Assembly: GCA_035387745.1 (NCBI GenBank)
Contig: DAOOON010000004.1
Coordinates: forward strand, 1-15,014
Direction: 5' to 3'
Length of the DNA stretch: 15,014 nucleotides
Source of the DNA: an archaeon
GTDB lineage: Archaea > Iainarchaeota > Iainarchaeia > Iainarchaeales > CSSED10-239
Part shown: in pieces, positions 665-11,731 of the stretch
Layout: each line of letters opens with the position of its first letter
How positions within the stretch are numbered: the first letter of the stretch is position 1
Made by a program: the position numbers and the translations under genes
The notes under the pieces: generated by a model
What the model was told of the DNA's origin: nothing
The model's input: the letters and a program-made list of their open reading frames with translations, nothing else
Database searches by the model: none

Positions 665-700
665 TAAAAAATAAGAAGAAAGGATTCTTATCTGAATCCT
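665..700 (-). terminator. Hairpin plus T-rich tract after the small zinc-ribbon gene
   Basis: On the minus strand, AGGATTC-AGATAA-GAATCCT (681..700; its loop holds the TAA stop at 688..690) is followed by TTCTTCTTATTTTTT. Confidence 0.4.
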
Positions 701-831
701 TTAAATTTATAGTCTTTTACCTTTGGAGGTTCGTTATTGCATTTTAAGCAAACTTCGTCTCCACTTTCTTCATCTATTCTGTGTCTTGTAACATTTTTAC
801 AAAAAGGACACATTTTTGTTTCATATTTCAT
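688..831 (-). CDS. Small zinc-ribbon protein (47 aa), unknown function
   Basis: Absent from the ORF track because it is under 60 aa. Hand translation: MKYETKMCPFCKNVTRHRIDEESGDEVCLKCNNEPPKVKDYKFKGFR*. It has two CxxC pairs (C8/C11, C28/C31). GTGAT lies 5 nt upstream of the ATG and a hairpin terminator sits at the stop. Confidence 0.55.
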   Translation of the reverse strand: MKYETKMCPFCKNVTRHRIDEESGDEVCLKCNNEPPKVKDYKFKGFR

Positions 832-1002: not shown

Positions 1003-1069
1003 AAAAAAAATAAAAAGAATAAGAAAATAAAAAAATCATATCAAAAAAATAAATCAGTTAGTTTACGAT
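1003..1069 (-). terminator. Oligo-T terminator region downstream of the 22-codon ORF
   Basis: The minus strand after the stop reads AAATCgtaaactaactGATTT, then T7, T7, T5 and T8 runs. Archaeal transcription terminates at oligo-T tracts. Confidence 0.35.
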
Positions 1070-1138
1070 TTATTTCTTCTTCTTTTTTACTGTTTTTTTT
1101 GCTGCAGGTTTTTTTGCTGCTTTTTTCTTTACTACCAT
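1070..1138 (-). CDS. Candidate 22-aa lysine/alanine-rich micro-protein
   Basis: Hand translation: MVVKKKAAKKPAAKKTVKKKKKK*. GGTGA (1145..1149) lies exactly 6 nt upstream of the ATG, the same GGTGA-N6-ATG geometry seen at rpl10e (3954..3958) and trkA (14696..14700). T-tracts follow the stop. Confidence 0.3.
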   Translation of the reverse strand: MVVKKKAAKKPAAKKTVKKKKK

Positions 1139-3203: not shown

Positions 3204-3947
<744 letters not shown>

Positions 3948-4002
3948 CTTGTTTCACCTTTATTAAAAAAATAGATAAAATTGTCGAAATTTATCTTTAT
4001 TG

Positions 4003-4010
4003 TATATAAA
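4003..4010 (-). promoter_or_regulatory. TATA box candidate for rpl10e
   Basis: The minus strand reads TTTATATA about 59 nt upstream of the ATG, leaving a ~30-nt leader that contains the GGTGA SD. A 7-bp hairpin (AGATAAA/TTTATCT, about 3973..3998) lies between them. Confidence 0.35.
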
Positions 4011-4073
4011 TATATTTATATAGAAACATATTTAAATAAAACATTTTAATAATTTTAAAAAAAACTAGAATAT

Positions 4074-4240
4074 AGAAAGGAAAAAGAGGCCTTTTTGCAG
4101 GTCTCCTTTCTCTTTATTACATTTCTTTTGGGGAAAGAAAAGTTTTTGGGGTAAAACACCTCAAAAATGTAATATAAGAAAGAAAAGAACAGGGACCTGT
4201 TCTGGTAAACAGTGTGTTTCTCTTCTTCCTCTTTTCTGCC
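4074..4240. ncRNA. Candidate structured RNA of unknown class in a 474-nt intergenic region
   Basis: Three consecutive hairpins. (1) AGAAAG/CTTTCT (4074-4079 with 4106-4111) enclosing GAGGCC/GGTCTC (4086-4091 with 4100-4105). (2) A 10-bp stem (4115-4124 with 4165-4174) enclosing TTGGGGT/ACCTCAA (4146-4152 with 4158-4164). (3) AGAACAG/CTGTTCT (4186-4192 with 4197-4203). A pyrimidine run at 4217-4237 is complementary to the purine runs at 4074-4089 and 4177-4188. There is no ORF. Strand is ambiguous: both imperfect stems become G-U wobbles only on the plus strand, but on the minus strand hairpin 1 is followed by T5, as in a terminator. Confidence 0.3.
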
Positions 4241-4421
4241 TTGTATTTTATTCTTTGTGGAATTTGGTAATAGATTTAACTGTTATATCTTATAGTCCTA
4301 AAATCTTTATATATACTACCGGGTGGTTTTTCCAAACCTAAACTAGAAAAAGGGTTTGATTAGCAAAATATACATAATAAAATGTTTGTTTTTTTGAGGT
4401 TTTTAACTCTTTTTTGCAAAT

Positions 4422-4781
4422 TTACCAATTTAACTTGTCGCCAATAGAGAAGAGCTTTTTGCCATATTTTGCAGGAAGTTCTATAATATAGCGACATTTA
4501 TCTCTTGGCTTTGTCATCTGCCAAGGCTTAAGCCCAAGCTTGATATCTATAATCTTCTTCTTAGAATCTAAAAACACAACATTTATTGGAAAAAACACAA
4601 AAAACATGTGTATGCTTGCACCAATATGCGTATCTCTTTCAAGATCAAATATCAGGCCATAATCAAAGTTTTTCTCTCTAGAAAACATTAGACCCTTTGC
4701 TCTACTAAACACATTGTCTGCAATCCTGTGAGTTGCTATAATATTTTTTTTCTGCGAGATGTTTCTAATCATATTAATCAT
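4422..4781 (-). CDS. DUF192 (COG1430/UPF0127-like) protein
   Basis: 119 aa. The pattern ADNVFSRAKGLMF...IHMFFVFFPINVVFLDSKKKIIDI...CRYIIELPAKYGKKLFSIGDKL matches the DUF192 layout as I recall it (GLM...M...PLDxxFxD...YVLEL..G....I.GD). It is the last gene of the minus-strand block, 10 nt after the preceding gene. Confidence 0.6.
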   Translation of the reverse strand: MINMIRNISQKKNIIATHRIADNVFSRAKGLMFSREKNFDYGLIFDLERDTHIGASIHMFFVFFPINVVFLDSKKKIIDIKLGLKPWQMTKPRDKCRYIIELPAKYGKKLFSIGDKLNW

Positions 4782-4791
4782 TATATTTTAA

Positions 4792-5919
4792 TTATTTGGA
4801 TAACCCAAAGGTTATAACAAATTCATTGTCTTGCTGTTTTGTAATCTTAAAATCATAAAATGCTGGTTCATTAACAAGTATTGTATAGGTTTTACAATCT
4901 GTTAAACAATTTGAATCAATAAATGAAATATTAATTCTGGTAGACTCTAGAATATATTTAGAACTAATTGTCTTTAAAGCAATGATGTGCCTCATTTCTA
5001 CTTCTGTCTTGTTGTTTTTTATCATATATTCCATTGTATCAATAATTATTTCTTCTGCATCTGGCTTAGGAATAAACGTCTGAAATAAAACGATAGTAAC
5101 AACAAATAAAATAAAAACATATTTTATAAAATTTAAACCTCTATCTTTTTTTATAATATACATTACATACGAGGTAAATCCCCCTAAAAGTAAAGCAATA
5201 TACAAGATAAAATTATCAAAAAAAGTTCTAGTAATTATTTCCTCTGTTGAATACCACAAAAAATTACTACCAATAATGTGGTCTATATACAATAATACAA
5301 AAATAAAGATAAAATAAAACAAAACAGATAAATAAAACAAATTAGAAAAATATATTTTATTCTTAGACTCGCTTCTAAAAAGAAGTAAATCTTTAGATAC
5401 GTTCTCAAGTATTTTATCATAATCAATTGTTGATTTTTTTAAAACATCTATTATTATTAGAGTGTGCTCAATCACAGAACTGTTAATGTTTTTATTTATG
5501 GAATATAATGATTCTTCAAAGCTTTCACCCCAAGAAACTCTATTTGAAAGCCTCTTTATTTCTGGATTAATATTGCCGTAAAAATTATATTCTGACAGAT
5601 TAGATAATGCCAAAGATAAGTTTCTTGTTTTTTTATACTCTTTTGATAAATCATACAAAAAATAATTGAATTCGGTTTCTACAGATTTTCTTTTTTCGGT
5701 TTTTATGTAGTATTCTATTAAAAACCCTAAGCCCCCTACAAAAATCCCAGAAATAAAAACTATAAAATAGATATTGCTTGCTGCAAAATATTTGTTAGCT
5801 ATGGCTATAATTAAAAGACCACAAACAATTCCTGCTAATTCTAATATAGAATATTCATTATTATAAAAAAAAATATTTGCTTTCTTAAAAAAATCATTTT
5901 CTTGAGGATTTATAATCAT
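4792..5919 (-). CDS. Polytopic membrane protein, single T2SS-F (FlaJ/ArlJ/TadC)-like domain plus ~90-aa C-terminal non-membrane domain
   Basis: 375 aa: two N-terminal TM helices, a ~115-aa soluble helical segment (ETEFNYFLYDLSKEYKKTRNLSLALSNL...WGESFEESLYSI...VIEHTLIIIDVLKKS), three further TM helices, then a soluble tail containing SNCLTDC. It lies downstream of the FlaI-like gene as the second of two membrane-protein genes. The family call rests on topology and context only. Confidence 0.5.
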   Translation of the reverse strand: MIINPQENDFFKKANIFFYNNEYSILELAGIVCGLLIIAIANKYFAASNIYFIVFISGIFVGGLGFLIEYYIKTEKRKSVETEFNYFLYDLSKEYKKTRNLSLALSNLSEYNFYGNINPEIKRLSNRVSWGESFEESLYSINKNINSSVIEHTLIIIDVLKKSTIDYDKILENVSKDLLLFRSESKNKIYFSNLFYLSVLFYFIFIFVLLYIDHIIGSNFLWYSTEEIITRTFFDNFILYIALLLGGFTSYVMYIIKKDRGLNFIKYVFILFVVTIVLFQTFIPKPDAEEIIIDTMEYMIKNNKTEVEMRHIIALKTISSKYILESTRINISFIDSNCLTDCKTYTILVNEPAFYDFKITKQQDNEFVITFGLSK

Positions 5920-5923
5920 TCAC

Positions 5924-6766
5924 CTATTTATGTAATATTAAAACCAATATAATTTCAACTATTGGAAAAGCAATAGCTATAATAAATAATATATTTTTTA
6001 TAGAGTCCCTATAAAAAGGCATTAAAAAAACACTAAATATCAATATGAAAATTAAGAAAAACAAAAATATGTTTATTTCAAAAAGCAAAGTAATTTTGCT
6101 TCTTTTCCTTTCTTCTTTCTCTTTTCTTAATTGATCTGTAGATTCCAGATAATCTGAAATTACATTAGATAGTGTTGTTTTATTTTCTAAAACATCTATT
6201 AATTTTGAGAAAAAATTATATTCTTGCTCTGAATAAGTGCTATTACAAATTTGTTTTAATGTTCCCTTTAAGTTGTTATTTAAATCAGACATTGCTAATA
6301 TTTTTTTTGATTTTTCAGTTAATAGTTTATTACTTCCAATTTTTTGAAATAAATATAAAACATCTTTAACGCTCATCTTTTGATCTTGTAAAACCGATAA
6401 ATGCCTTATACTAATTTCTAATTCGTGCTCTAATTCCTTTTTGTTTGATGTAATTAAATAATGTGGATAGCGATATAAAGTCATAAAAATAAAACCTGCA
6501 AAAGTAAATGCAATAATAATTGTTAAAACAAACGTAAAAACCGAAAAGAGGATGTTCAATTTAAGCATTACAAAAATCATAAAAAATTCTAAACAAATGC
6601 CCACAAGAAAAGACAAGAATAATGTATTAGATATATAGGTTTGAACATCTTCTTCTATGTTAGTTATAACAAGCATTTTTGTTAGTTCTTTAAACTTAGG
6701 CGCGATGCTTTTAGAAATATCTGAAAAAAAAAAATTAGATATTTTTGATAGTGTTTTACCAAACAT
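5924..6766 (-). CDS. Polytopic membrane protein, single T2SS-F (FlaJ/ArlJ/TadC)-like domain
   Basis: 280 aa: two TM helices, a ~125-aa soluble helical segment (ELEISIRHLSVLQDQKMSVKDVLYLFQKIG...LKGTLKQICNS...FFSKLIDVLENKTTLSNVISDYLES), then two TM helices. It starts 21 nt after the FlaI-like gene, the canonical flaI-flaJ order. An AGGAG SD is present. Confidence 0.55.
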   Translation of the reverse strand: MFGKTLSKISNFFFSDISKSIAPKFKELTKMLVITNIEEDVQTYISNTLFLSFLVGICLEFFMIFVMLKLNILFSVFTFVLTIIIAFTFAGFIFMTLYRYPHYLITSNKKELEHELEISIRHLSVLQDQKMSVKDVLYLFQKIGSNKLLTEKSKKILAMSDLNNNLKGTLKQICNSTYSEQEYNFFSKLIDVLENKTTLSNVISDYLESTDQLRKEKEERKRSKITLLFEINIFLFFLIFILIFSVFLMPFYRDSIKNILFIIAIAFPIVEIILVLILHK

Positions 6767-6787
6767 TATTTATTTCTCCTGTTTTTA

Positions 6788-9307
6788 CTACTCCAAAATA
6801 TTTAATTTTTTTAATAATTGCTTTTTGTTATTGTAATAATCGTTAACTATATTATTAAAATCAGTACCATCTGTTATCCCCGAATCGACTAACCATCGGA
6901 GTAACTTTTTGTGATTAAAAAACTCTGATGTGCTTATTGCTGAGGACTCTAGATTAATCTTAAAATCGGAATCCTTTTTTGAATAATAGATTACGTCATT
7001 ATCTTTTCCGTTGCTTATTTCTAATATCTTAATAATTTGCATTTGTTCAATATTGTTTATTTTTGTTCGTTCTAGACTTATTATAATCGCTTTCCTATTA
7101 ATTGCTTTTGCCTTTTCTGAATATTTTGGCAGCAACTCCTCTGGCAGATAAACCATTGAAAAATCATACCATTTAATATCAAATAAATCTTCAGAGAAAT
7201 TATCTAAGATTAAATAATCTGATCTTTGAGAAAGCGTTTGAGAAATTATGGTCTTTTTATTTGATGCAATGTTATCTAGTAATAATTTCTTAATCCAATT
7301 CTTTTGTGGCAGTTTTATATAATCAAAGGACTGTATGCTAGTGATTGTTTTATCTGGATAAAATTGAGCCAATGCAGAAATAAACAAATTTGCATCTCCT
7401 CCGGTTATTAATATTTGAAAATCGTCATCCATTGCAGTCCAAATATAAGAATATATATCGGTTATGCCTATTCCTAAATTTATAAGGCTTACGGGAGTTA
7501 ACGGTTCTTCTAAATATTTTTTAATAATAAATGAAGACCCTCTATTGCTTATGTCGCCTACAGAATATAGGCCTTCTACTTTGTAGCCATTAGGCAAATA
7601 TCCATTTATTATTGGCTGAGCAGAATTAACTTGTAACCCCATTATTTTTGTTAAAGAAAGAACAAATTGATTTAGTTTAAATAGATTTTCAAATTTAAGA
7701 TTTGTCTCAATTGCCCCATACTTTAAGTGGTATACGATTATTGGCATATTCTCGCCAGAACAACTAATCTCTATTATATTTTTATCTTCTAAAATGGTCG
7801 ACAAAAAACCAAAACCTAAAAAGTCCCTTTTAATAAAATTAAAATATAATTTTTTTTCTAAATCTGTTAAATTATAAGACAATTTGTCAATAGTTAAATC
7901 AAATACTTTCTTAATATAGTTATTTAGATTTTGTTTATCACCTTTAAAGGAGGTGTAATTTGAATCAATAGAATCCAAGAAAATCTTTTTAATTTCGACA
8001 TATGTTTCTTCTTGAGATTGATTAAGTTCTGGCTGAATTACACTATATACTAATCCCTGAGACATCATGTAATTTATATTCACAAAAGTAAATTCATCGA
8101 TATTATATTTTTCGGAGATATTTATTTTATCGGTTTCAGATATTTGAGGTTTGACACTATAAACTTTAGTTATAGAACTGGATTGTTGAACACATGGTTT
8201 GTCTATTGTTTCTTTGGTAATTCTAGAAATTGCGGTTTTAGATAATGTTCTTTCTTCTGCATCTTTTGGCAACACATAATCAAAGGATGTTTTTTGCGAA
8301 ACTTTGGTTTGATTTGGTTTTTCTTCAATTAGAGATTTTTCTTTTATTTCATTATTATCAAAAGAAAGGTCTGGAACAACAATATCTTCAATATAATTGT
8401 CAATATTTAACTTTGGCTTCTCTGATTTTGCTTTCTGCTGTTCTTTTTTATAATTACTAATATTATTATCGATATTTTTATTGGTATTTATTTTGCCATT
8501 ATCCAAAATAAATGTTGACTCCCTTATTTTTTTTGTTGGAGGAATTTGCTCGTAAGTTGAAAATCCTTTATTTACTGCTTCTGAAATATTTGTATCATCT
8601 TTAATTGAAAAAATTTCTGGGACTTCTATTTCTTCAAGTAAAGCATAAATGTTATTAGTATTTTTTTGATCTTCTTTATTCTGTTGTTCTCCATTATATT
8701 GTGATTCTTCTTTTTTAATTTTTTTCTGGTTTATAACTTTTGTTTCTATTGCATCTAGTTTTGCATAAAGATGAGAGACGCCTGTATCTTTTATTGCAAT
8801 CTTTTTAATTTTGGGGTCATCATCTAAGAAACTAATTGATTCGAAAAATGGTTGTTCATCCTCTACTTTATCTGTTTTTTCTTCTAATGCTGTCAATAAA
8901 AAATCCACTTCCGGAGTATCTTTCTCTACTACATTTTCTAAATTAGTAATAGTAATTCTTTCTGCAATATCTTGTAATTTATTAGATATCACTTCTAGTC
9001 TTTTCTTTTCAACTTCCAATCTTAATGCATTTTCAACATATTCCCTTGGAGTAATTGTTTCAATTGTTGGATAATTAGATTCTGAATTATTTTCATGTGT
9101 TTTTGTTTCTATTTTAAAATTTCTAAATTCTTCTTTTTTTTCCGAAACATTGTGTAATTTTAACTTTGGAAGACTACCTACTTTGTTCTGATAGCTATCT
9201 GGAGGAGTATTATCTATAGAAATATTAAATTTTTGTGTGAGTGTTTTTTCTATTTTTTTTGGATCGCTATTATCATTAATCCTAGACAACTTTTTTAGTT
9301 CTACCAT
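6788..9307 (-). CDS. FlaI/ArlI-family (archaeal type IV filament assembly ATPase, T2SS-E superfamily) homolog with degenerate nucleotide-binding motifs and long N-terminal extension
   Basis: Residues ~415-839 follow the FlaI layout: VYSVIQPEL, LYFNFIKRDFLGFGFLSTILEDKNIIEISCSGENMPIIVYHLKYGAIETNLKF, NSAQPIINGYLPNGYKVEGLYSVGDISNRGSSFIIKKY, EPLTPVSLI, SYIW, and C-terminal LLRWL...VNDYY. The Walker A position reads GGDANLFIS (7376..7402), where GxxxxGK[ST] is expected. Confidence 0.85.
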   Translation of the reverse strand: MVELKKLSRINDNSDPKKIEKTLTQKFNISIDNTPPDSYQNKVGSLPKLKLHNVSEKKEEFRNFKIETKTHENNSESNYPTIETITPREYVENALRLEVEKKRLEVISNKLQDIAERITITNLENVVEKDTPEVDFLLTALEEKTDKVEDEQPFFESISFLDDDPKIKKIAIKDTGVSHLYAKLDAIETKVINQKKIKKEESQYNGEQQNKEDQKNTNNIYALLEEIEVPEIFSIKDDTNISEAVNKGFSTYEQIPPTKKIRESTFILDNGKINTNKNIDNNISNYKKEQQKAKSEKPKLNIDNYIEDIVVPDLSFDNNEIKEKSLIEEKPNQTKVSQKTSFDYVLPKDAEERTLSKTAISRITKETIDKPCVQQSSSITKVYSVKPQISETDKINISEKYNIDEFTFVNINYMMSQGLVYSVIQPELNQSQEETYVEIKKIFLDSIDSNYTSFKGDKQNLNNYIKKVFDLTIDKLSYNLTDLEKKLYFNFIKRDFLGFGFLSTILEDKNIIEISCSGENMPIIVYHLKYGAIETNLKFENLFKLNQFVLSLTKIMGLQVNSAQPIINGYLPNGYKVEGLYSVGDISNRGSSFIIKKYLEEPLTPVSLINLGIGITDIYSYIWTAMDDDFQILITGGDANLFISALAQFYPDKTITSIQSFDYIKLPQKNWIKKLLLDNIASNKKTIISQTLSQRSDYLILDNFSEDLFDIKWYDFSMVYLPEELLPKYSEKAKAINRKAIIISLERTKINNIEQMQIIKILEISNGKDNDVIYYSKKDSDFKINLESSAISTSEFFNHKKLLRWLVDSGITDGTDFNNIVNDYYNNKKQLLKKLNILE

Positions 9308-9326
9308 ATCGATAACTACATAAATA

Positions 9327-9334
9327 TATTTATA
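9327..9334 (-). promoter_or_regulatory. TATA box candidate for the FlaI-like gene (leaderless or very short leader)
   Basis: The minus strand reads CTATAAATATATTTA, with TATAAATA about 23-27 nt upstream of the ATG at 9307. No SD is present. Confidence 0.35.
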
Positions 9335-9346
9335 GCAAATAATAAG

Positions 9347-9377
9347 GGCATTATATTTATAAATATATTTTAATGCC
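9347..9377. repeat. 31-nt inverted repeat between the peptidase stop and the FlaI-like promoter
   Basis: GGCATTA (9347..9353) pairs with TAATGCC (9371..9377). They enclose the perfect 14-nt palindrome ATATTTATAAATAT (9353..9366). Confidence 0.6.
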
Positions 9378-9383
9378 TAAATT

Positions 9384-10124
9384 CTAAATAAAAGAGGTGG
9401 CGAAATTACCTAAGAGTGAAAGCACATTAAAATAGGTCAATACGGAAACAATAGCATAAGCAATTGTTAGTATTAATACAAAAGGAACTAATGGAGATAC
9501 CCATATTTTATCTATGCGATGAATTTTAGAAAACTTCTTTAATTCATATATTTGCTGTTCTGGAGAACAATTTGGTTTTATTGTTGTTTTAGAAATAACT
9601 TTATTATTTACCAATTTATATTCTTCTAAAGGGGTATAAAAATTAGTTAATTTATTTATTGCTTTTGGAAAGCCAAAGCTCATTAAAATTAAGCTTTCTC
9701 CTAATGGCTTTTTAGGGAAATTGCCTTTAATTGTATTGTAAATTAAAAACAAAATTGGGAAAAACAACGTTAAAACCGTAGACATTAAAAAGACTAGCCC
9801 TGTAAATAAAACAGAAATACCACTAATAAAACTCATTGTCATTAATGCAATAAGGTCCCCTTCCCCAATATATGCATAAACTGTAAATTTTCCTAATACA
9901 TAGATGATGGTTAAGAATGCAAAAGATATTGCGATCTGTAAAATATACATATATAAAAAACCTTTAATTAAACCAAAAAAAATATAATATGCAAAACCAA
10001 TTGCAGAAATAACTAATAATGGTACAATATTTATTTCTCTGTATTTTAAATCTTGATATCCCAAATAAATAAAACAAATTAAACCTATTAAAAACATAGG
10101 GAAAAATATAATGCTCATGCTCAT
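9384..10124 (-). CDS. A24-family prepilin/preflagellin (class III signal) peptidase
   Basis: 246-aa polytopic membrane protein. The first catalytic Asp context is GYQDLKYREI (D25) and the second is IGEGDLIAL (GxGD, D90). A ~60-aa soluble insert lies between the TM blocks, as in FlaK-type enzymes. Its ATG overlaps the upstream gene's TGA stop (ATGA). Confidence 0.8.
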   Translation of the reverse strand: MSMSIIFFPMFLIGLICFIYLGYQDLKYREINIVPLLVISAIGFAYYIFFGLIKGFLYMYILQIAISFAFLTIIYVLGKFTVYAYIGEGDLIALMTMSFISGISVLFTGLVFLMSTVLTLFFPILFLIYNTIKGNFPKKPLGESLILMSFGFPKAINKLTNFYTPLEEYKLVNNKVISKTTIKPNCSPEQQIYELKKFSKIHRIDKIWVSPLVPFVLILTIAYAIVSVLTYFNVLSLLGNFATSFI

Positions 10125-11095
10125 CTCTTTTCTTCTTTTTCTTTAATTGGCTTCTTTTCTTTTATTTTTTTTGGTTTTTTCGTTTGAATTGCTGTTTTAG
10201 TCAAATGAATTAAATCATCATATGCTTTTCTTTTTGTTATCCTTGCAGTTGATCTTTCAAACAATTGATCAGTGTATTTGCCTGGTGGGCCAAAAGAAAC
10301 AATTTGCTTTTTTAAAATCTTATTTAGTATTGCTTGATTTTGTAAAGTGTTATTTGTTTCATCAATTATTGATTTTGGTAAATCTATAGTCAAAACTCCA
10401 CTACCAATTCTGTCCACATAGTTTGTACCAGAGCCAGCAGTAACAAAATTGGCCATTTGCGCTAACTTAATGGTTGCTGAAAATTTATAAACTAAATCGT
10501 AGCTTTTCTGGTCAATCTTTTGATTTAACCTATCTGCTGTTTTTGAAATACCGGCAATATTAAAGGCTTTGTGTTTTTGTACATACCATAAGAAGTCCCT
10601 AAGGGTTTTTATAAAAAATGAATCATACATATAATAAGTAATGTAGCCCATCATGCCATTATAGCCTTCGACACCAACATTCTTTTCTTTTATAAACTTC
10701 TCTAATTTTGATAATCCCATTAAATAGCTTGCTGAGTTATTTATCAAACCAAAAGGGTGGGCAATCACAAAAAGGTAATCCTTCCTCTCACACATATCAT
10801 AGATTCTTCTCATCGAAACATTCTCTTCAAAAAAAACATTATAACTATAGATGTCTTCGTTTGGGGCATAAACTAAAACTTCTCCCTGATCTGTAGAAAT
10901 GGTTATTCCCGGAATCAAGATGTTTGCTTTTGGTTTATCTTTTAACAAATCAAAATATGCTTTCTTTGGATTTTTCTTTGCGTTTTCAGTGATTGCAGTT
11001 CCTAGAAGATTATTCTTGTTAGCAAACTGCCAGTATCTTTTACTTGACTGCTTTCTTTTTAGAAACTGCGTATTTAAATCTAAGTTATATGACAT
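10121..11095 (-). CDS. PHP-domain-like protein with substituted metal-ligand positions and Lys-rich C-terminal tail
   Basis: 324 aa. Its segments line up by eye with the PHP motifs: LDLNTQF (DLHxHT), AITEN (TDH), ILIPGITISTDQGEVLVY (GxEis...Hxl), FVIAHPFG (AHP retained), VGVEGYNG (iEvxN) and TAGSGTNYVDRIGSG (GSDAHxxxxxG). The tail is KKPKKIKEKKPIKEKEEKR. The assignment is from memory of the family pattern. Confidence 0.45.
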   Translation of the reverse strand: MSYNLDLNTQFLKRKQSSKRYWQFANKNNLLGTAITENAKKNPKKAYFDLLKDKPKANILIPGITISTDQGEVLVYAPNEDIYSYNVFFEENVSMRRIYDMCERKDYLFVIAHPFGLINNSASYLMGLSKLEKFIKEKNVGVEGYNGMMGYITYYMYDSFFIKTLRDFLWYVQKHKAFNIAGISKTADRLNQKIDQKSYDLVYKFSATIKLAQMANFVTAGSGTNYVDRIGSGVLTIDLPKSIIDETNNTLQNQAILNKILKKQIVSFGPPGKYTDQLFERSTARITKRKAYDDLIHLTKTAIQTKKPKKIKEKKPIKEKEEKR

Positions 11096-11104
11096 ATTTT
11101 TCTT

Positions 11105-11731
11105 TTATTTTTTTAAATTTACTCTTGCATCGACTATGTAGATTTCTTTTTCTGTTAGAATTACTGGATTTAGATCAATCTCTTGAAGATGCTTGTCTTT
11201 GCTCAACTCGCAGACTTTTTCTAGTAAGGAGATTAGCTTTGAGACAGGATAGTTCTTTCCTCTTGCAGAAAAGTACCTACTTACTTTTGTTGTATAAACC
11301 ATAACTTCTATTTCTTTTTTTGTTATTGGTAAAAGTCTTATTGTAGTGTCATCTTGTAATTCAGTGTAGATACCACCTTGGCCAAAGACTATAACTTTTC
11401 CAAATTGAGCATCATTGTTTATTCCTATCAATAACTCAAGGCCTTTAACTTGCTTTTGAATAATTACTTTGCCTTTTACTTTCTCTTTTTTTAGAACTTC
11501 TTGAAGCTTTTCAAAGGCATCTATGAACGCTTCTTTTGTGTAAATTTCTGTGTAAACTGCTTTACTTTCAGTTTTATGTACAAGAGAAGAACTAAGTTTA
11601 AGTACATATGGAAAATCCGAAAATCTTTCTATATCTTTTTTTAAAAGTTCTTTAGATTCTAAAATTGCAATATTTTTTTGTTTTAGATATTTAAAAGAAT
11701 CCTCTAAGTTAAGCCAAGCCATTTTTTTCAC
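11105..11731 (-). CDS. ATP-grasp domain protein resembling the beta subunit of ADP-forming acetyl-CoA synthetase (AcdB-like)
   Basis: 208 aa: FPYVLKLSSSLVHKTESKAVY (family PVVLKixSxxixHKsdxGGV), IIQKQVKGLELLIGINNDAQFGKVIVFGQGGIYTELQDD, and EIDLNPVIL...IVDARV at the C-terminus. No alpha/CoA-binding subunit is in the window. Confidence 0.65.
   Translation of the reverse strand: MKKMAWLNLEDSFKYLKQKNIAILESKELLKKDIERFSDFPYVLKLSSSLVHKTESKAVYTEIYTKEAFIDAFEKLQEVLKKEKVKGKVIIQKQVKGLELLIGINNDAQFGKVIVFGQGGIYTELQDDTTIRLLPITKKEIEVMVYTTKVSRYFSARGKNYPVSKLISLLEKVCELSKDKHLQEIDLNPVILTEKEIYIVDARVNLKK

What the first reader, a model, noticed from the sequence alone, without database searches (positions are those of the whole stretch)
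4422..11731. Seven-gene minus-strand block: type IV filament-like machinery without pilin or active ATPase, joined to AcdB-like ATP-grasp, degenerate PHP and DUF192 genes
The gene order is ATP-grasp (AcdB-like), 9 nt, PHP-like, 4-nt ATGA overlap, A24 peptidase, 76 nt with its own TATA box, dead FlaI-like, 21 nt, T2SS-F-like, 4 nt, T2SS-F-like, 10 nt, DUF192. The spacing implies one or two transcription units. A peptidase and platform proteins imply a class III signal-peptide substrate, yet no pilin/archaellin-like ORF lies in the block and the gaps are too small to hide one. The ATP-grasp, PHP-like and DUF192 partners are not standard archaellum, Aap, Ups or Tad components as far as I know. 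This may be an undescribed surface-filament or cell-contact apparatus variant, plausibly energised in trans. That interpretation is inference.
Basis: partly seen in the sequence, partly recalled or inferred. Interest (0 to 1): 0.7.

Follow-up and report, generated by a model that had tools for sequence, protein, structure and literature searches.

The report
Pilus-type gene cassette with dead ATPase
This tiny-genome (DPANN, Iainarchaeota) archaeon carries a conserved pilus-assembly gene cassette whose motor protein has lost every ATP-burning motif yet is kept under strong selection, so it probably works as a scaffold powered by another ATPase, although no such ATPase was found for this species.

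Summary
In detail: seven minus-strand ORFs with exactly the stated spacing and family assignments, no pilin ORF in the window, and a FlaI/GspE-fold protein lacking Walker A, the Walker B Glu and the His box.

The "seven-gene apparatus" reading is only partly supported. The order recurs in 15 GTDB species and 26 metagenome loci of Iainarchaeota, but their housekeeping flanks are collinear too. A distant lineage (L043, 25-28% identity, unrelated flanks) keeps only four genes:
- A24 peptidase
- pseudo-ATPase
- two T2SS-F platform genes

That four-gene set is the real unit. The other three genes fare differently:
- **ATP-grasp:** absent in several relatives.
- **PHP-like pseudoenzyme and DUF192:** neighbours found throughout Iainarchaeota but absent from L043.

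Outside the window's subclade, a class-III-signal pilin (often with a PKD adhesin) follows DUF192 wherever the sequence reaches. The window's subclade has an ORF-free spacer there.

An intact ferredoxin-fused T2SS-E ATPase with its own two platform genes, and no peptidase or recognisable pilin beside it in the loci read, co-occurs in at least nine related genomes or contigs. This makes energisation in trans plausible. I could not find that ATPase for the window's own species.

Verdict: a new variant of the type IV filament kind, and I found no description of it in the library searched.

The parts
9384..10124 (-). A24-type (FlaK/PibD-like) prepilin peptidase, 246 aa. Core cassette gene 1. The catalytic Asp dyad is present (D25 in YQDLKYREI, D90 in GEGD).
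   Evidence: Pfam Arc_PepC_II 3e-10 and NCBIfam FlaK 4e-11. D25 and D90 are invariant in 14 orthologues. 14/14 hit Arc_PepC_II and 10/14 hit Peptidase_A24. An orthologue sits in the distant locus L043.
6788..9307 (-). Pseudo-ATPase of the archaeal GspE/FlaI/PilB family, 839 aa. Core cassette gene 2. Residues 1-~390 (nt ~8138-9307) are a K/E/N/S-rich, fast-evolving extension with no known domain. Residues ~390-839 keep the two-domain secretion-ATPase fold but lack Walker A (nt ~7385-7423), the Walker B Glu (nt ~7183-7204) and the His box.
   Evidence: NCBIfam FlaI 2e-34. Alignment with true FlaIs. PDB profile search 2OAP 4e-47. Foldseek 2OAP 1e-23 and FlaI 2e-21. It forms a discrete clade of about 17 50%-identity clusters, all without Walker A. 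dN/dS is 0.07-0.10 for the core and 0.21-0.40 for the extension. All 14 orthologues whose locus spans the whole gene are intact 788-1116 aa ORFs.
5924..6766 (-). T2SS-F / TadB-like platform protein a, 280 aa, one T2SSF domain. Core cassette gene 3.
   Evidence: Pfam T2SSF 2.2e-8 and ArlJ/FlaJ N-half 8.5e-8. Orthologue in L043 at 28% identity. dN/dS 0.054.
4792..5919 (-). T2SS-F / TadC-like platform protein b, 375 aa. Core cassette gene 4. One T2SSF domain plus a conserved ~95-aa domain C-terminal to the last predicted transmembrane helix, so probably extracytoplasmic (nt ~4792-5073), carrying a PKPDAE motif and two conserved Cys.
   Evidence: Pfam T2SSF 2.3e-5 here, and 10/11 orthologues hit. 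Alignment A5. The L043 orthologue aligns over 353 aa and reaches into the C-terminal domain.
4422..4781 (-). DUF192 (UPF0127/COG1430) protein, 119 aa, no signal peptide. An Iainarchaeota-wide downstream neighbour of the cassette, absent from L043.
   Evidence: Pfam DUF192 2e-15 and NCBIfam PRK03760 2e-30. It follows T2SSF_b, or FlaI-dead in L007, in every Iainarchaeota locus that extends that far. Absent in L043.
10121..11095 (-). PHP-fold pseudoenzyme, 324 aa, with a K-rich tail. An Iainarchaeota-specific upstream neighbour, usually within about 50 nt of the peptidase gene. Most metal ligands are lost (DLNTQ, ITEN, GSGT).
   Evidence: 48 homologues, all at least 54% identical, none with a Pfam domain. 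Alignment A3. AF2 pLDDT 79 and Foldseek PHP hits, RNase AM 2e-4. dN/dS 0.04-0.07. Not near the cassette in L043. Separated from A24 by a reverse-strand UPP synthase gene in L021.
11105..11731 (-). ATP-grasp_5 (AcdB-like) protein, 205-208 aa. A neighbour, not part of the system.
   Evidence: Pfam 3.5e-37. Absent between bCASP and PHP-like in L014, L016, L017, L018, L053, L054, L060, L062, L063 and L069. Separated from PHP-like by a 370-aa ORF in L012.
3948..4421 (-). ORF-free spacer at the position where other Iainarchaeota carry the pilin (and PKD adhesin) genes. It holds no pilin remnant. It contains a conserved ~125-nt element that belongs to the uL16 side.
   Evidence: Three-frame translation shows no pilin relic. 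The spacer is 462-478 bp and conserved in L007-L010. Pilin genes occupy this site in L012, L016-L019, L021, L035, L053-L057, L059, L060, L062-L064, L068 and L069.

Best explanation
The functional unit is a four-gene type IV filament cassette. It consists of an active A24 prepilin peptidase, a catalytically dead GspE/FlaI-fold protein with a long disordered N-terminal extension, and two single-domain T2SS-F (TadB/TadC-like) platform proteins.

In Iainarchaeota the cassette is embedded between a lineage-specific PHP-fold pseudoenzyme and a DUF192 gene. In most lineages it is followed by its substrate genes, a class-III-signal pilin and often a PKD-domain adhesin. The window's subclade has lost those substrate genes from this site. 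The ATP-grasp gene is only a neighbour.

Shown:
- the anatomy of the cassette;
- loss of all ATPase motifs across the whole clade;
- purifying selection on every gene;
- conservation of the four-gene core down to 25% identity.

Inferred mechanism:
- The peptidase matures pilins.
- The two platform proteins and the pseudo-ATPase ring form a non-catalytic membrane platform or scaffold. The extension probably serves as a docking or spacer arm.
- Energy for filament assembly comes from a second, intact module: a ferredoxin-fused T2SS-E ATPase plus its own two T2SS-F proteins and a VTT/DedA protein. That module has no peptidase and no recognisable pilin beside it in the loci read, and it co-occurs with the dead cassette in related genomes.
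For: Dead motifs:
- Alignment against true FlaIs.
- All clade representatives lack GxxxxGK[ST].
- The fold and homology are retained: afGspE 2OAP 4e-47 and FlaI 5e-30, and Foldseek alignments that run the full length.

Selection:
- dN/dS is 0.04-0.25 for all block genes, and 0.07-0.10 for the ATPase-fold part, similar to NDK and uL16.
- All 14 orthologous ORFs that lie wholly within their loci are intact.

Core cassette:
- L043, from a different lineage with unrelated flanks, keeps A24, pseudo-ATPase, T2SSF and T2SSF at 25-28% identity and nothing else of the block.

Peptidase:
- The catalytic dyad is invariant.

Pilin:
- KKS|ISAIISVVLLILV-type ORFs lie directly after DUF192 in most relatives, with a PKD protein in the Forterrea group.

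Active paralogue (intact Walker A/B, T2SSE 1.7e-34, Fer4 domains):
- adjacent to the dead cassette in L013;
- about 10 kb downstream in L035;
- in the same MAG as L019 (L022) and in the same MAG or bin as L020 (L033);
- on the Forterrea chromosome-length contig (P0194);
- on contigs of the same length as L021's (57,584), L063's (368,344), and the 63,384 and 41,531 contigs that carry PHP-like P0053 and P0054.
- No peptidase or recognisable pilin is called next to the active module in the loci inspected.
Against: - No active ATPase and no pilin could be found for the window's own species or shown for its subclade. Nine candidate proteins were traced to other organisms, and a 10-kb walk downstream found nothing.
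- An orthologue of 36% identity or more should have appeared among the 120 best hits with the same multi-source signature as the window proteins, and none did.
- L007 (83% identical pseudo-ATPase) has cleanly lost both platform genes while keeping the pseudo-ATPase, peptidase, PHP-like and DUF192. This argues that the pseudo-ATPase has a role that does not need its own platform.
- No physical or co-evolutionary evidence links the two modules.
- Transcription units are unknown.
Confidence: 0.5

Rival explanations
1. The pseudo-ATPase cassette works without any filament. The peptidase, platform proteins and dead hexamer would form a static membrane complex, for example a cell-contact or anchoring complex, or a regulator or brake of the active pilus motor. 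Pilin adjacency in other lineages would then be incidental.
For: - The window's subclade has no pilin at the locus.
- No active ATPase was traced to this species.
- L043 also has no pilin nearby.
- L007 keeps the pseudo-ATPase under dN/dS 0.10 without its platform genes.
- The long, conserved-island-bearing disordered extension suggests a docking role.
Against: - The peptidase keeps its catalytic dyad, which implies class III substrates.
- The pilin sits directly after the cassette in most lineages.
- The platform proteins are conserved as T2SS-F.
- Absence in MAG fragments is weak evidence.
Confidence: 0.2
2. One reading: all seven genes, including ATP-grasp, PHP-like and DUF192, form one new surface apparatus.
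For: - Tight spacing and the same strand in the window.
- The PHP-like/A24 junction is about 50 nt or less in 11 of 13 species.
- DUF192 follows the cassette in every Iainarchaeota locus that reaches that far.
- PHP-like is lineage-specific and the most conserved gene of the block.
Against: - ATP-grasp is absent in 10 loci, and a 370-aa ORF is inserted after it in L012.
- A reverse-strand UPP synthase separates PHP-like from A24 in L021.
- L043 has none of the three.
- The housekeeping flanks are just as collinear, so synteny inside Iainarchaeota is not specific.
Confidence: 0.12
3. A decaying relic. Only the peptidase is still needed, and the dead ATPase and platform genes are on their way out.
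For: - The ATPase motifs are lost.
- The pilin is lost from this site in the window's subclade.
- Both platform genes are deleted in L007.
Against: - All 14 fully covered pseudo-ATPase ORFs are intact across species that differ by up to about 60%.
- dN/dS is 0.05-0.10.
- The dead state is shared with a lineage at 26% identity, so it is ancient and stable.
- The other apparent defects, in L009 and L018, are scaffold N-runs.
Confidence: 0.08

Closest known systems
Archaeal type IV pilus assembly modules (FlaI/PilB-type ATPase + FlaJ/PilC-type platform + PibD/FlaK/EppA peptidase), e.g. Haloferax PilB3-PilC3, Sulfolobus Aap/Ups
   Same: - The same three protein families.
- The ATPase-fold protein is closest to archaeal GspE and FlaI and has a weak PilB3_C match at its C-terminus.
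- Class-III-signal pilins lie next to the cassette in most relatives.
   Different: - The ATPase has lost Walker A, the Walker B Glu and the His box throughout the clade, and carries a 340-670 aa disordered N-terminal extension.
- The platform is split into two genes.
- The second platform protein has a conserved domain C-terminal to its last predicted transmembrane helix.
- A PHP-fold pseudoenzyme and DUF192 flank the cassette.
Bacterial Tad/Flp pilus (CpaF/TadA, TadB, TadC, TadV)
   Same: - The platform is encoded as two single-T2SSF-domain proteins next to the ATPase-family gene.
- An A24-family peptidase without a methyltransferase domain.
- CpaF is a detectable structural relative.
   Different: - No TadZ, secretin or Flp-type pilin.
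- The ATPase homologue is catalytically dead and is closer to archaeal GspE/FlaI than to CpaF.
Methanococcus maripaludis Epd pili, where the pilin/peptidase locus is separate from the ATPase/platform locus (from my own knowledge, not checked here)
   Same: It is a precedent for a type IV pilus system whose parts are encoded at separate loci and cooperate in trans.
   Different: There the separate locus holds the only, active, ATPase. Here the pilin/peptidase locus retains its own ATPase homologue and platform, but the ATPase is dead.
ArlH/FlaH of the archaellum motor, a RecA/KaiC-family protein that interacts with FlaI in a nucleotide-dependent way (title and abstract of PMC5019145, listed)
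   Same: It shows the concept of a non-motor NTPase-fold protein acting as a structural or regulatory partner of a type IV filament motor.
   Different: It belongs to an unrelated family and still binds nucleotide. The protein here is a FlaI/GspE paralogue whose P-loop is deleted.

Membership tests
GspE/FlaI/PilB secretion-ATPase family (T2SS-E) | Sequence and fold homology across the N-terminal and C-terminal domains | tested here: met
   NCBIfam FlaI 2e-34. PDB profile search: afGspE 4e-47, FlaI 5e-30. Foldseek: 2OAP 1e-23, 4IHQ 2e-21 over 480-510 columns. Pfam T2SSE itself gives no hit.
GspE/FlaI/PilB secretion-ATPase family (T2SS-E) | Walker A P-loop GxxGxGK[ST] | tested here: not met
   A 3-residue deletion leaves ITGGDANLF. 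The motif is absent in all clade members and in P0223.
GspE/FlaI/PilB secretion-ATPase family (T2SS-E) | Walker B with catalytic Glu (DxxxxGE) and His box | tested here: not met
   The sequence is DYLILDNFSE here. The His-box region carries a 5-residue deletion.
Peptidase A24 (prepilin/preflagellin peptidase, FlaK/PibD type) | Two catalytic Asp residues, the second in a GxGD motif, in a polytopic membrane protein | tested here: met
   D25 and GEGD D90 are invariant in 14 orthologues. Arc_PepC_II hits 14/14 and Peptidase_A24 hits 10/14. FlaK NCBIfam 4e-11. The match to the FlaK structure 3S0X is weak, E 0.043.
T2SS-F / TadB-TadC / FlaJ platform proteins | Cytoplasmic T2SSF domain flanked by transmembrane helices | tested here: met
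   Protein a: T2SSF 2.2e-8, above the cut-off. Protein b: 24.8 bits against a 25.2 cut-off here, but 10/11 orthologues match, best 2e-8.
Complete type IV filament system | At least one class-III-signal pilin substrate in the genome | tested here: inconclusive
   None in the window or in about 35 kb of the same contig. Present directly after DUF192 in most related lineages. The whole genome of this species could not be searched.
Complete type IV filament system | An active assembly ATPase | tested here: inconclusive
   An intact Fer4-fused T2SS-E ATPase co-occurs in at least nine related genomes or contigs. It was not traced to the window's species.
PHP (polymerase and histidinol phosphatase) domain | PHP fold | tested here: met
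   AF2 pLDDT 79. The 16 best Foldseek hits are PHP-domain entries (RNase AM, PolC, Pol III alpha). The best E is 2e-4 and TM-scores are 0.3-0.5, so support is moderate.
PHP (polymerase and histidinol phosphatase) domain | His/Asp/Glu metal-ligand motifs (HxH, DH, E, H, H, DxH) | tested here: not met
   HxH is NTQ in the window, although it is HTH in distant relatives. ITDH is ITEN/ITEY. GSDxH is GSGT/GSGS in all 27 aligned members. There is no Pfam or NCBIfam PHP hit.
DUF192 / UPF0127 | Profile match over the full domain | tested here: met
   Pfam 2.1e-15 over positions 4-96 of 96. NCBIfam PRK03760 2e-30, below its equivalog cut-off. PDB 3PJY 9e-4.

The most novel reading that the evidence does not exclude
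The four-gene cassette is a distinct, ancient class of type IV filament-derived machine in DPANN archaea. In this class a permanently nucleotide-free FlaI/GspE-fold ring with a long disordered arm has become a structural or regulatory organelle component. It would either hand its platform and pilins to a redox-sensing (Fe-S-fused) motor encoded elsewhere, or, in the window's subclade, act without any filament, for example in contact with the host cell.
Probability: 0.2. Interest if true: 0.8.

Novelty: new variant of a known kind. Interest (0 to 1): 0.56.

Why it matters
Type IV filament machines are defined by a hexameric motor ATPase. Here a whole archaeal phylum-level lineage, plus at least one distant one, has kept the motor's fold, its platform and its peptidase for a very long time after deleting the P-loop. 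That is a natural experiment on what the ATPase ring does besides hydrolysis.

Iainarchaeota are uncultured, small-genome DPANN archaea. Their surface structures are the likely interface with hosts or partners. A conserved locus holding a peptidase, pseudo-motor, pilin and adhesin, together with a separate Fe-S-fused active motor, gives concrete targets for cryo-ET, heterologous expression and interaction studies.

The result also corrects annotation. These proteins are called 'hypothetical' or, by homology, 'FlaI', but they cannot be ATPases.

Tried and rejected
1. **Pilin fused to the platform protein.** The KKDRG|LNFIKYVFILFVV stretch before the last helix of T2SSF_b looked like a class III signal. 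I rejected this because the R/K-G is not conserved in L012-L021.
2. **Pilin remnant in the 474-bp spacer.** None is present in any frame.
3. **Small ORFs as Flp-like pilins.** The 47-aa ORF at 688-831 is a zinc ribbon.
4. **Gene decay in relatives.** The 'internal stop' in L009 T2SSF_a, the 'internal deletion' in L018 T2SSF_b and the L013 'rearrangement' all coincide with scaffold N-runs. Only the L007 deletion stands.
5. **L013 as proof that PHP-like is separable.** This is unsafe because of the 100-N joint.
6. **Tracing the active ATPase to the window's species.** P0072, P0074, P0077, P0080, P0081, P0085, P0092, P0103 and P0118 all map to other samples. Cluster look-ups gave no shared locus tags. 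A walk from the thioredoxin gene found nothing.
7. **Rfam and tRNA scans of the window.** No hits at gathering thresholds.
8. **Bacterial-type promoter scan.** Not enriched, 58 against 51±7, and not applicable to archaea.
9. **PHP-like as RNase P Rpp30.** No Rpp30 structure appears among the top 50 fold hits.
10. **Literature.** No description of a dead FlaI/PilB in DPANN was found.

Full report
**Origin of the window**

The window is identical to ENA contig ERZ761564 NODE_4656. The same organism occurs in NCBI MAG GCA_964645375.1 and in several other samples. GC content is about 27%.

All related loci come from MAGs labelled archaeon, Diapherotrites, Iainarchaeum or ainarchaeum. They include the closed genome of Candidatus Forterrea multitransposorum, phylum Iainarchaeota, DPANN.

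**Checking the observation**

The seven minus-strand ORFs, their coordinates and every stated gap are correct, including the ATGA overlap. Profile searches confirm these families:
- DUF192
- two T2SS-F proteins
- an A24/FlaK-type peptidase
- an ATP-grasp_5 protein
- a FlaI-family protein that Pfam's T2SSE model no longer recognises

The second T2SS-F protein scores 24.8 bits against a cut-off of 25.2. Ten of eleven orthologues match the family, so the assignment is safe.

**The dead ATPase**

Alignment with genuine FlaI/PilB proteins shows three lesions:
- The P-loop is shortened by three residues and has no GK[ST].
- The Walker B Gly-Glu is replaced.
- The His-box region carries a five-residue deletion.

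The protein still matches archaeal GspE (2OAP, 4e-47) and FlaI (4II7, 5e-30) by profile. A model of its C-terminal 450 residues aligns to those structures over their full length.

A profile search of 1.84 billion representatives finds a sharply separated clade. About 17 clusters score 593-893 bits, and the next hits score below 245 bits. Every member of the clade lacks Walker A.

All 14 orthologues whose locus spans the whole gene are intact ORFs of 788-1116 aa. The ATPase-fold part evolves at dN/dS 0.07-0.10, like NDK or uL16. The N-terminal 340-670 residues evolve at 0.21-0.40, are K/E/N/S-rich and match no domain.

This is a stable pseudoenzyme, not a pseudogene.

**The peptidase and the PHP-like protein**

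The peptidase keeps both catalytic aspartates (D25, and D90 in GEGD) in all 14 orthologues aligned.

The 324-aa protein has homologues only in this lineage: 48 proteins, all at least 54% identical, none with a Pfam domain. Its model (pLDDT 79) finds PHP domains as best structural matches, with modest scores and a best E of 2e-4.

Motif inspection shows a half-degenerate metal site in the family and a further degenerate one here. DLHTH has become DLNTQ, and GSDxH is GSGT in all members. It is nonetheless the most constrained gene of the block, with dN/dS 0.04-0.07.

**Synteny**

The order PHP-like, A24, pseudo-ATPase, T2SSF, T2SSF, DUF192 recurs in 15 GTDB species representatives and 26 metagenome contigs.
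- upstream: TrkA, NMD3 and a beta-CASP nuclease;
- downstream: uL16, a THUMP methyltransferase and NDK.

Conservation inside Iainarchaeota therefore cannot show which genes belong together.

Three observations separate the genes:
1. ATP-grasp is missing from ten loci and is separated from PHP-like by a 370-aa ORF in L012.
2. In L021 a reverse-strand UPP synthase gene sits between PHP-like and A24.
3. This one is decisive. A distant dead-ATPase protein, P0223, lies in a locus with entirely different flanks (L043, GCA_043821385.1). That locus retains exactly A24, pseudo-ATPase, T2SSF and T2SSF. These are orthologous at 25-28% identity, and the T2SSF_b alignment reaches into the domain C-terminal to its last predicted transmembrane helix. 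L043 has no DUF192, PHP-like, ATP-grasp or pilin nearby.

The conserved unit is therefore a four-gene cassette, and the loss of ATPase motifs predates the split of these lineages.

**The missing pilin**

Outside the window's subclade, every locus that reaches far enough has a 170-180 aa ORF directly after DUF192. It carries a textbook archaeal class III signal (for example MNRKKS|ISAIISVVLLILVT) and gives weak UpsA and arch_flag_Nterm matches. A large PKD-domain protein often follows.

The window's subclade (L001, L007-L011, L048, L049, L066) instead has an ORF-free spacer of about 470 bp with no pilin relic.

'No pilin' is thus true of the window but is a derived state.

**A candidate energy source**

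In L013 the dead cassette is immediately followed by a second module:
- a 596-aa protein with an N-terminal 4Fe-4S ferredoxin domain and an intact T2SS-E ATPase (GNTGSGKTT, DRVVIGEIR);
- two T2SS-F-like proteins.

This family is widespread in Iainarchaeota and neighbouring DPANN. Its locus is itself conserved as ATPase, T2SSF, T2SSF and a VTT/DedA protein, with no peptidase or recognisable pilin beside it in the loci read.

It co-occurs with the dead cassette in these cases:
- on the same contig, about 10 kb away, in L035;
- in the same MAGs as L019 and L015, and in the same MAG or bin as L020;
- on a contig of the Forterrea chromosome's length (839,632 bp);
- on contigs of the same length as four others that carry the dead locus (57,584, 63,384, 41,531 and 368,344 bp).

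The two loci are complementary. One holds the peptidase, pilin, adhesin, dead motor and a platform. The other holds the live motor and a platform. That is the basis for my preferred model.

**Weaknesses of the model**

I could not find the live motor for the window's own species. Nine candidates mapped to other organisms, and a 10-kb walk found nothing.

L007 has cleanly lost both platform genes while retaining the pseudo-ATPase under constraint. Both points keep a filament-independent role alive as a rival.

The other apparent defects in relatives are scaffold gaps, not decay.

**Comparison with known systems**

The cassette is built from the three families of archaeal type IV pilus systems. 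It has a Tad-like split platform, and its ATPase homologue is nearest to archaeal GspE/FlaI.

It fails the defining catalytic features of the ATPase family, so it should not be filed as a FlaI or PilB ATPase. It most likely still works within a type IV filament system.

Full-text searches found no description of a conserved dead FlaI/PilB homologue in DPANN or other archaea. The 2016 census of archaeal type IV pili does not mention DPANN or Diapherotrites.

**Verdict**

It is a new variant of a known kind. The unit is four genes rather than seven, with two lineage-specific companions of unknown role (the PHP-fold pseudoenzyme and DUF192) and one unrelated neighbour (ATP-grasp).

Noticed in passing
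window ~4162-4317, minus strand (TATA-like box ~4306-4317, element ~4162-4285): A conserved ~125-nt non-coding element lies in the DUF192-uL16 spacer. It has its own TATA-like box, a purine-rich/pyrimidine-rich long hairpin enclosing a GAACAGGTCCCTGTTC hairpin, and a T-run.

It is conserved at about 75% identity upstream of uL16 even in Forterrea-group loci, where neighbouring proteins are only 45-70% identical. Several base pairs covary. It has no Rfam match above threshold. It is probably an undescribed small RNA or a uL16 leader.
   Followed up: partly
L013:10080-13475; also L022, L026, L027, L033, L035, L070, L073: A conserved DPANN module made of a T2SS-E ATPase fused to an N-terminal 4Fe-4S ferredoxin domain, two T2SS-F-like proteins and a VTT/DedA membrane protein, with no peptidase or recognisable pilin next to it. 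An Fe-S-fused pilus motor suggests redox control of filament assembly.
   Followed up: partly
L007:11341-11416: A species with an 83% identical pseudo-ATPase has a clean deletion of both T2SS-F genes. The pseudo-ATPase stop codon is followed about 70 nt later by DUF192, with no N-run, and the remaining genes stay under purifying selection.
   Followed up: partly
window 3204-3947, minus strand (uL16): Ribosomal protein uL16/L10e carries a ~55-residue Lys/Ala/Pro/Thr-rich C-terminal tail (…GKGATPAKGATPAKGAAPAAPAGKAATPAKKK). The tail is histone-H1-like in composition and is also present in Forterrea.
   Followed up: no
L017:7985-11335: The N-terminal extension of the Forterrea pseudo-ATPase contains five tandem copies of a 15-residue unit (KKEVPLDKVDNSNIS). 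Short conserved islands such as FxESISFLDDxPK and EEIEVPEIFSIKDD recur across the clade.
   Followed up: no
window 688-831 and ~1066-1134, minus strand: Two tiny ORFs lie between NDK and thioredoxin. One is a 47-aa CxxC…CxxC zinc-ribbon protein, called as a gene in several assemblies. The other is a 22-aa Lys-rich peptide (MVVKKKAAKKPAAKKTVKKKKK), preceded by a purine-rich stretch.
   Followed up: no
L043:6535-7239 and L021:6887-7570: A UPP synthase (cis-prenyltransferase) gene lies divergently upstream of the A24 peptidase, both in the distant lineage and in L021. It may be an older neighbour of the cassette than PHP-like.
   Followed up: no
L073:1-6411: A giant ORF (3311 aa called, no Pfam hit) lies about 1.6 kb upstream of the active Fer4-ATPase module, beyond two reverse-strand genes, on a 520-kb Iainarchaeota-like contig. 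It may be a surface protein.
   Followed up: no
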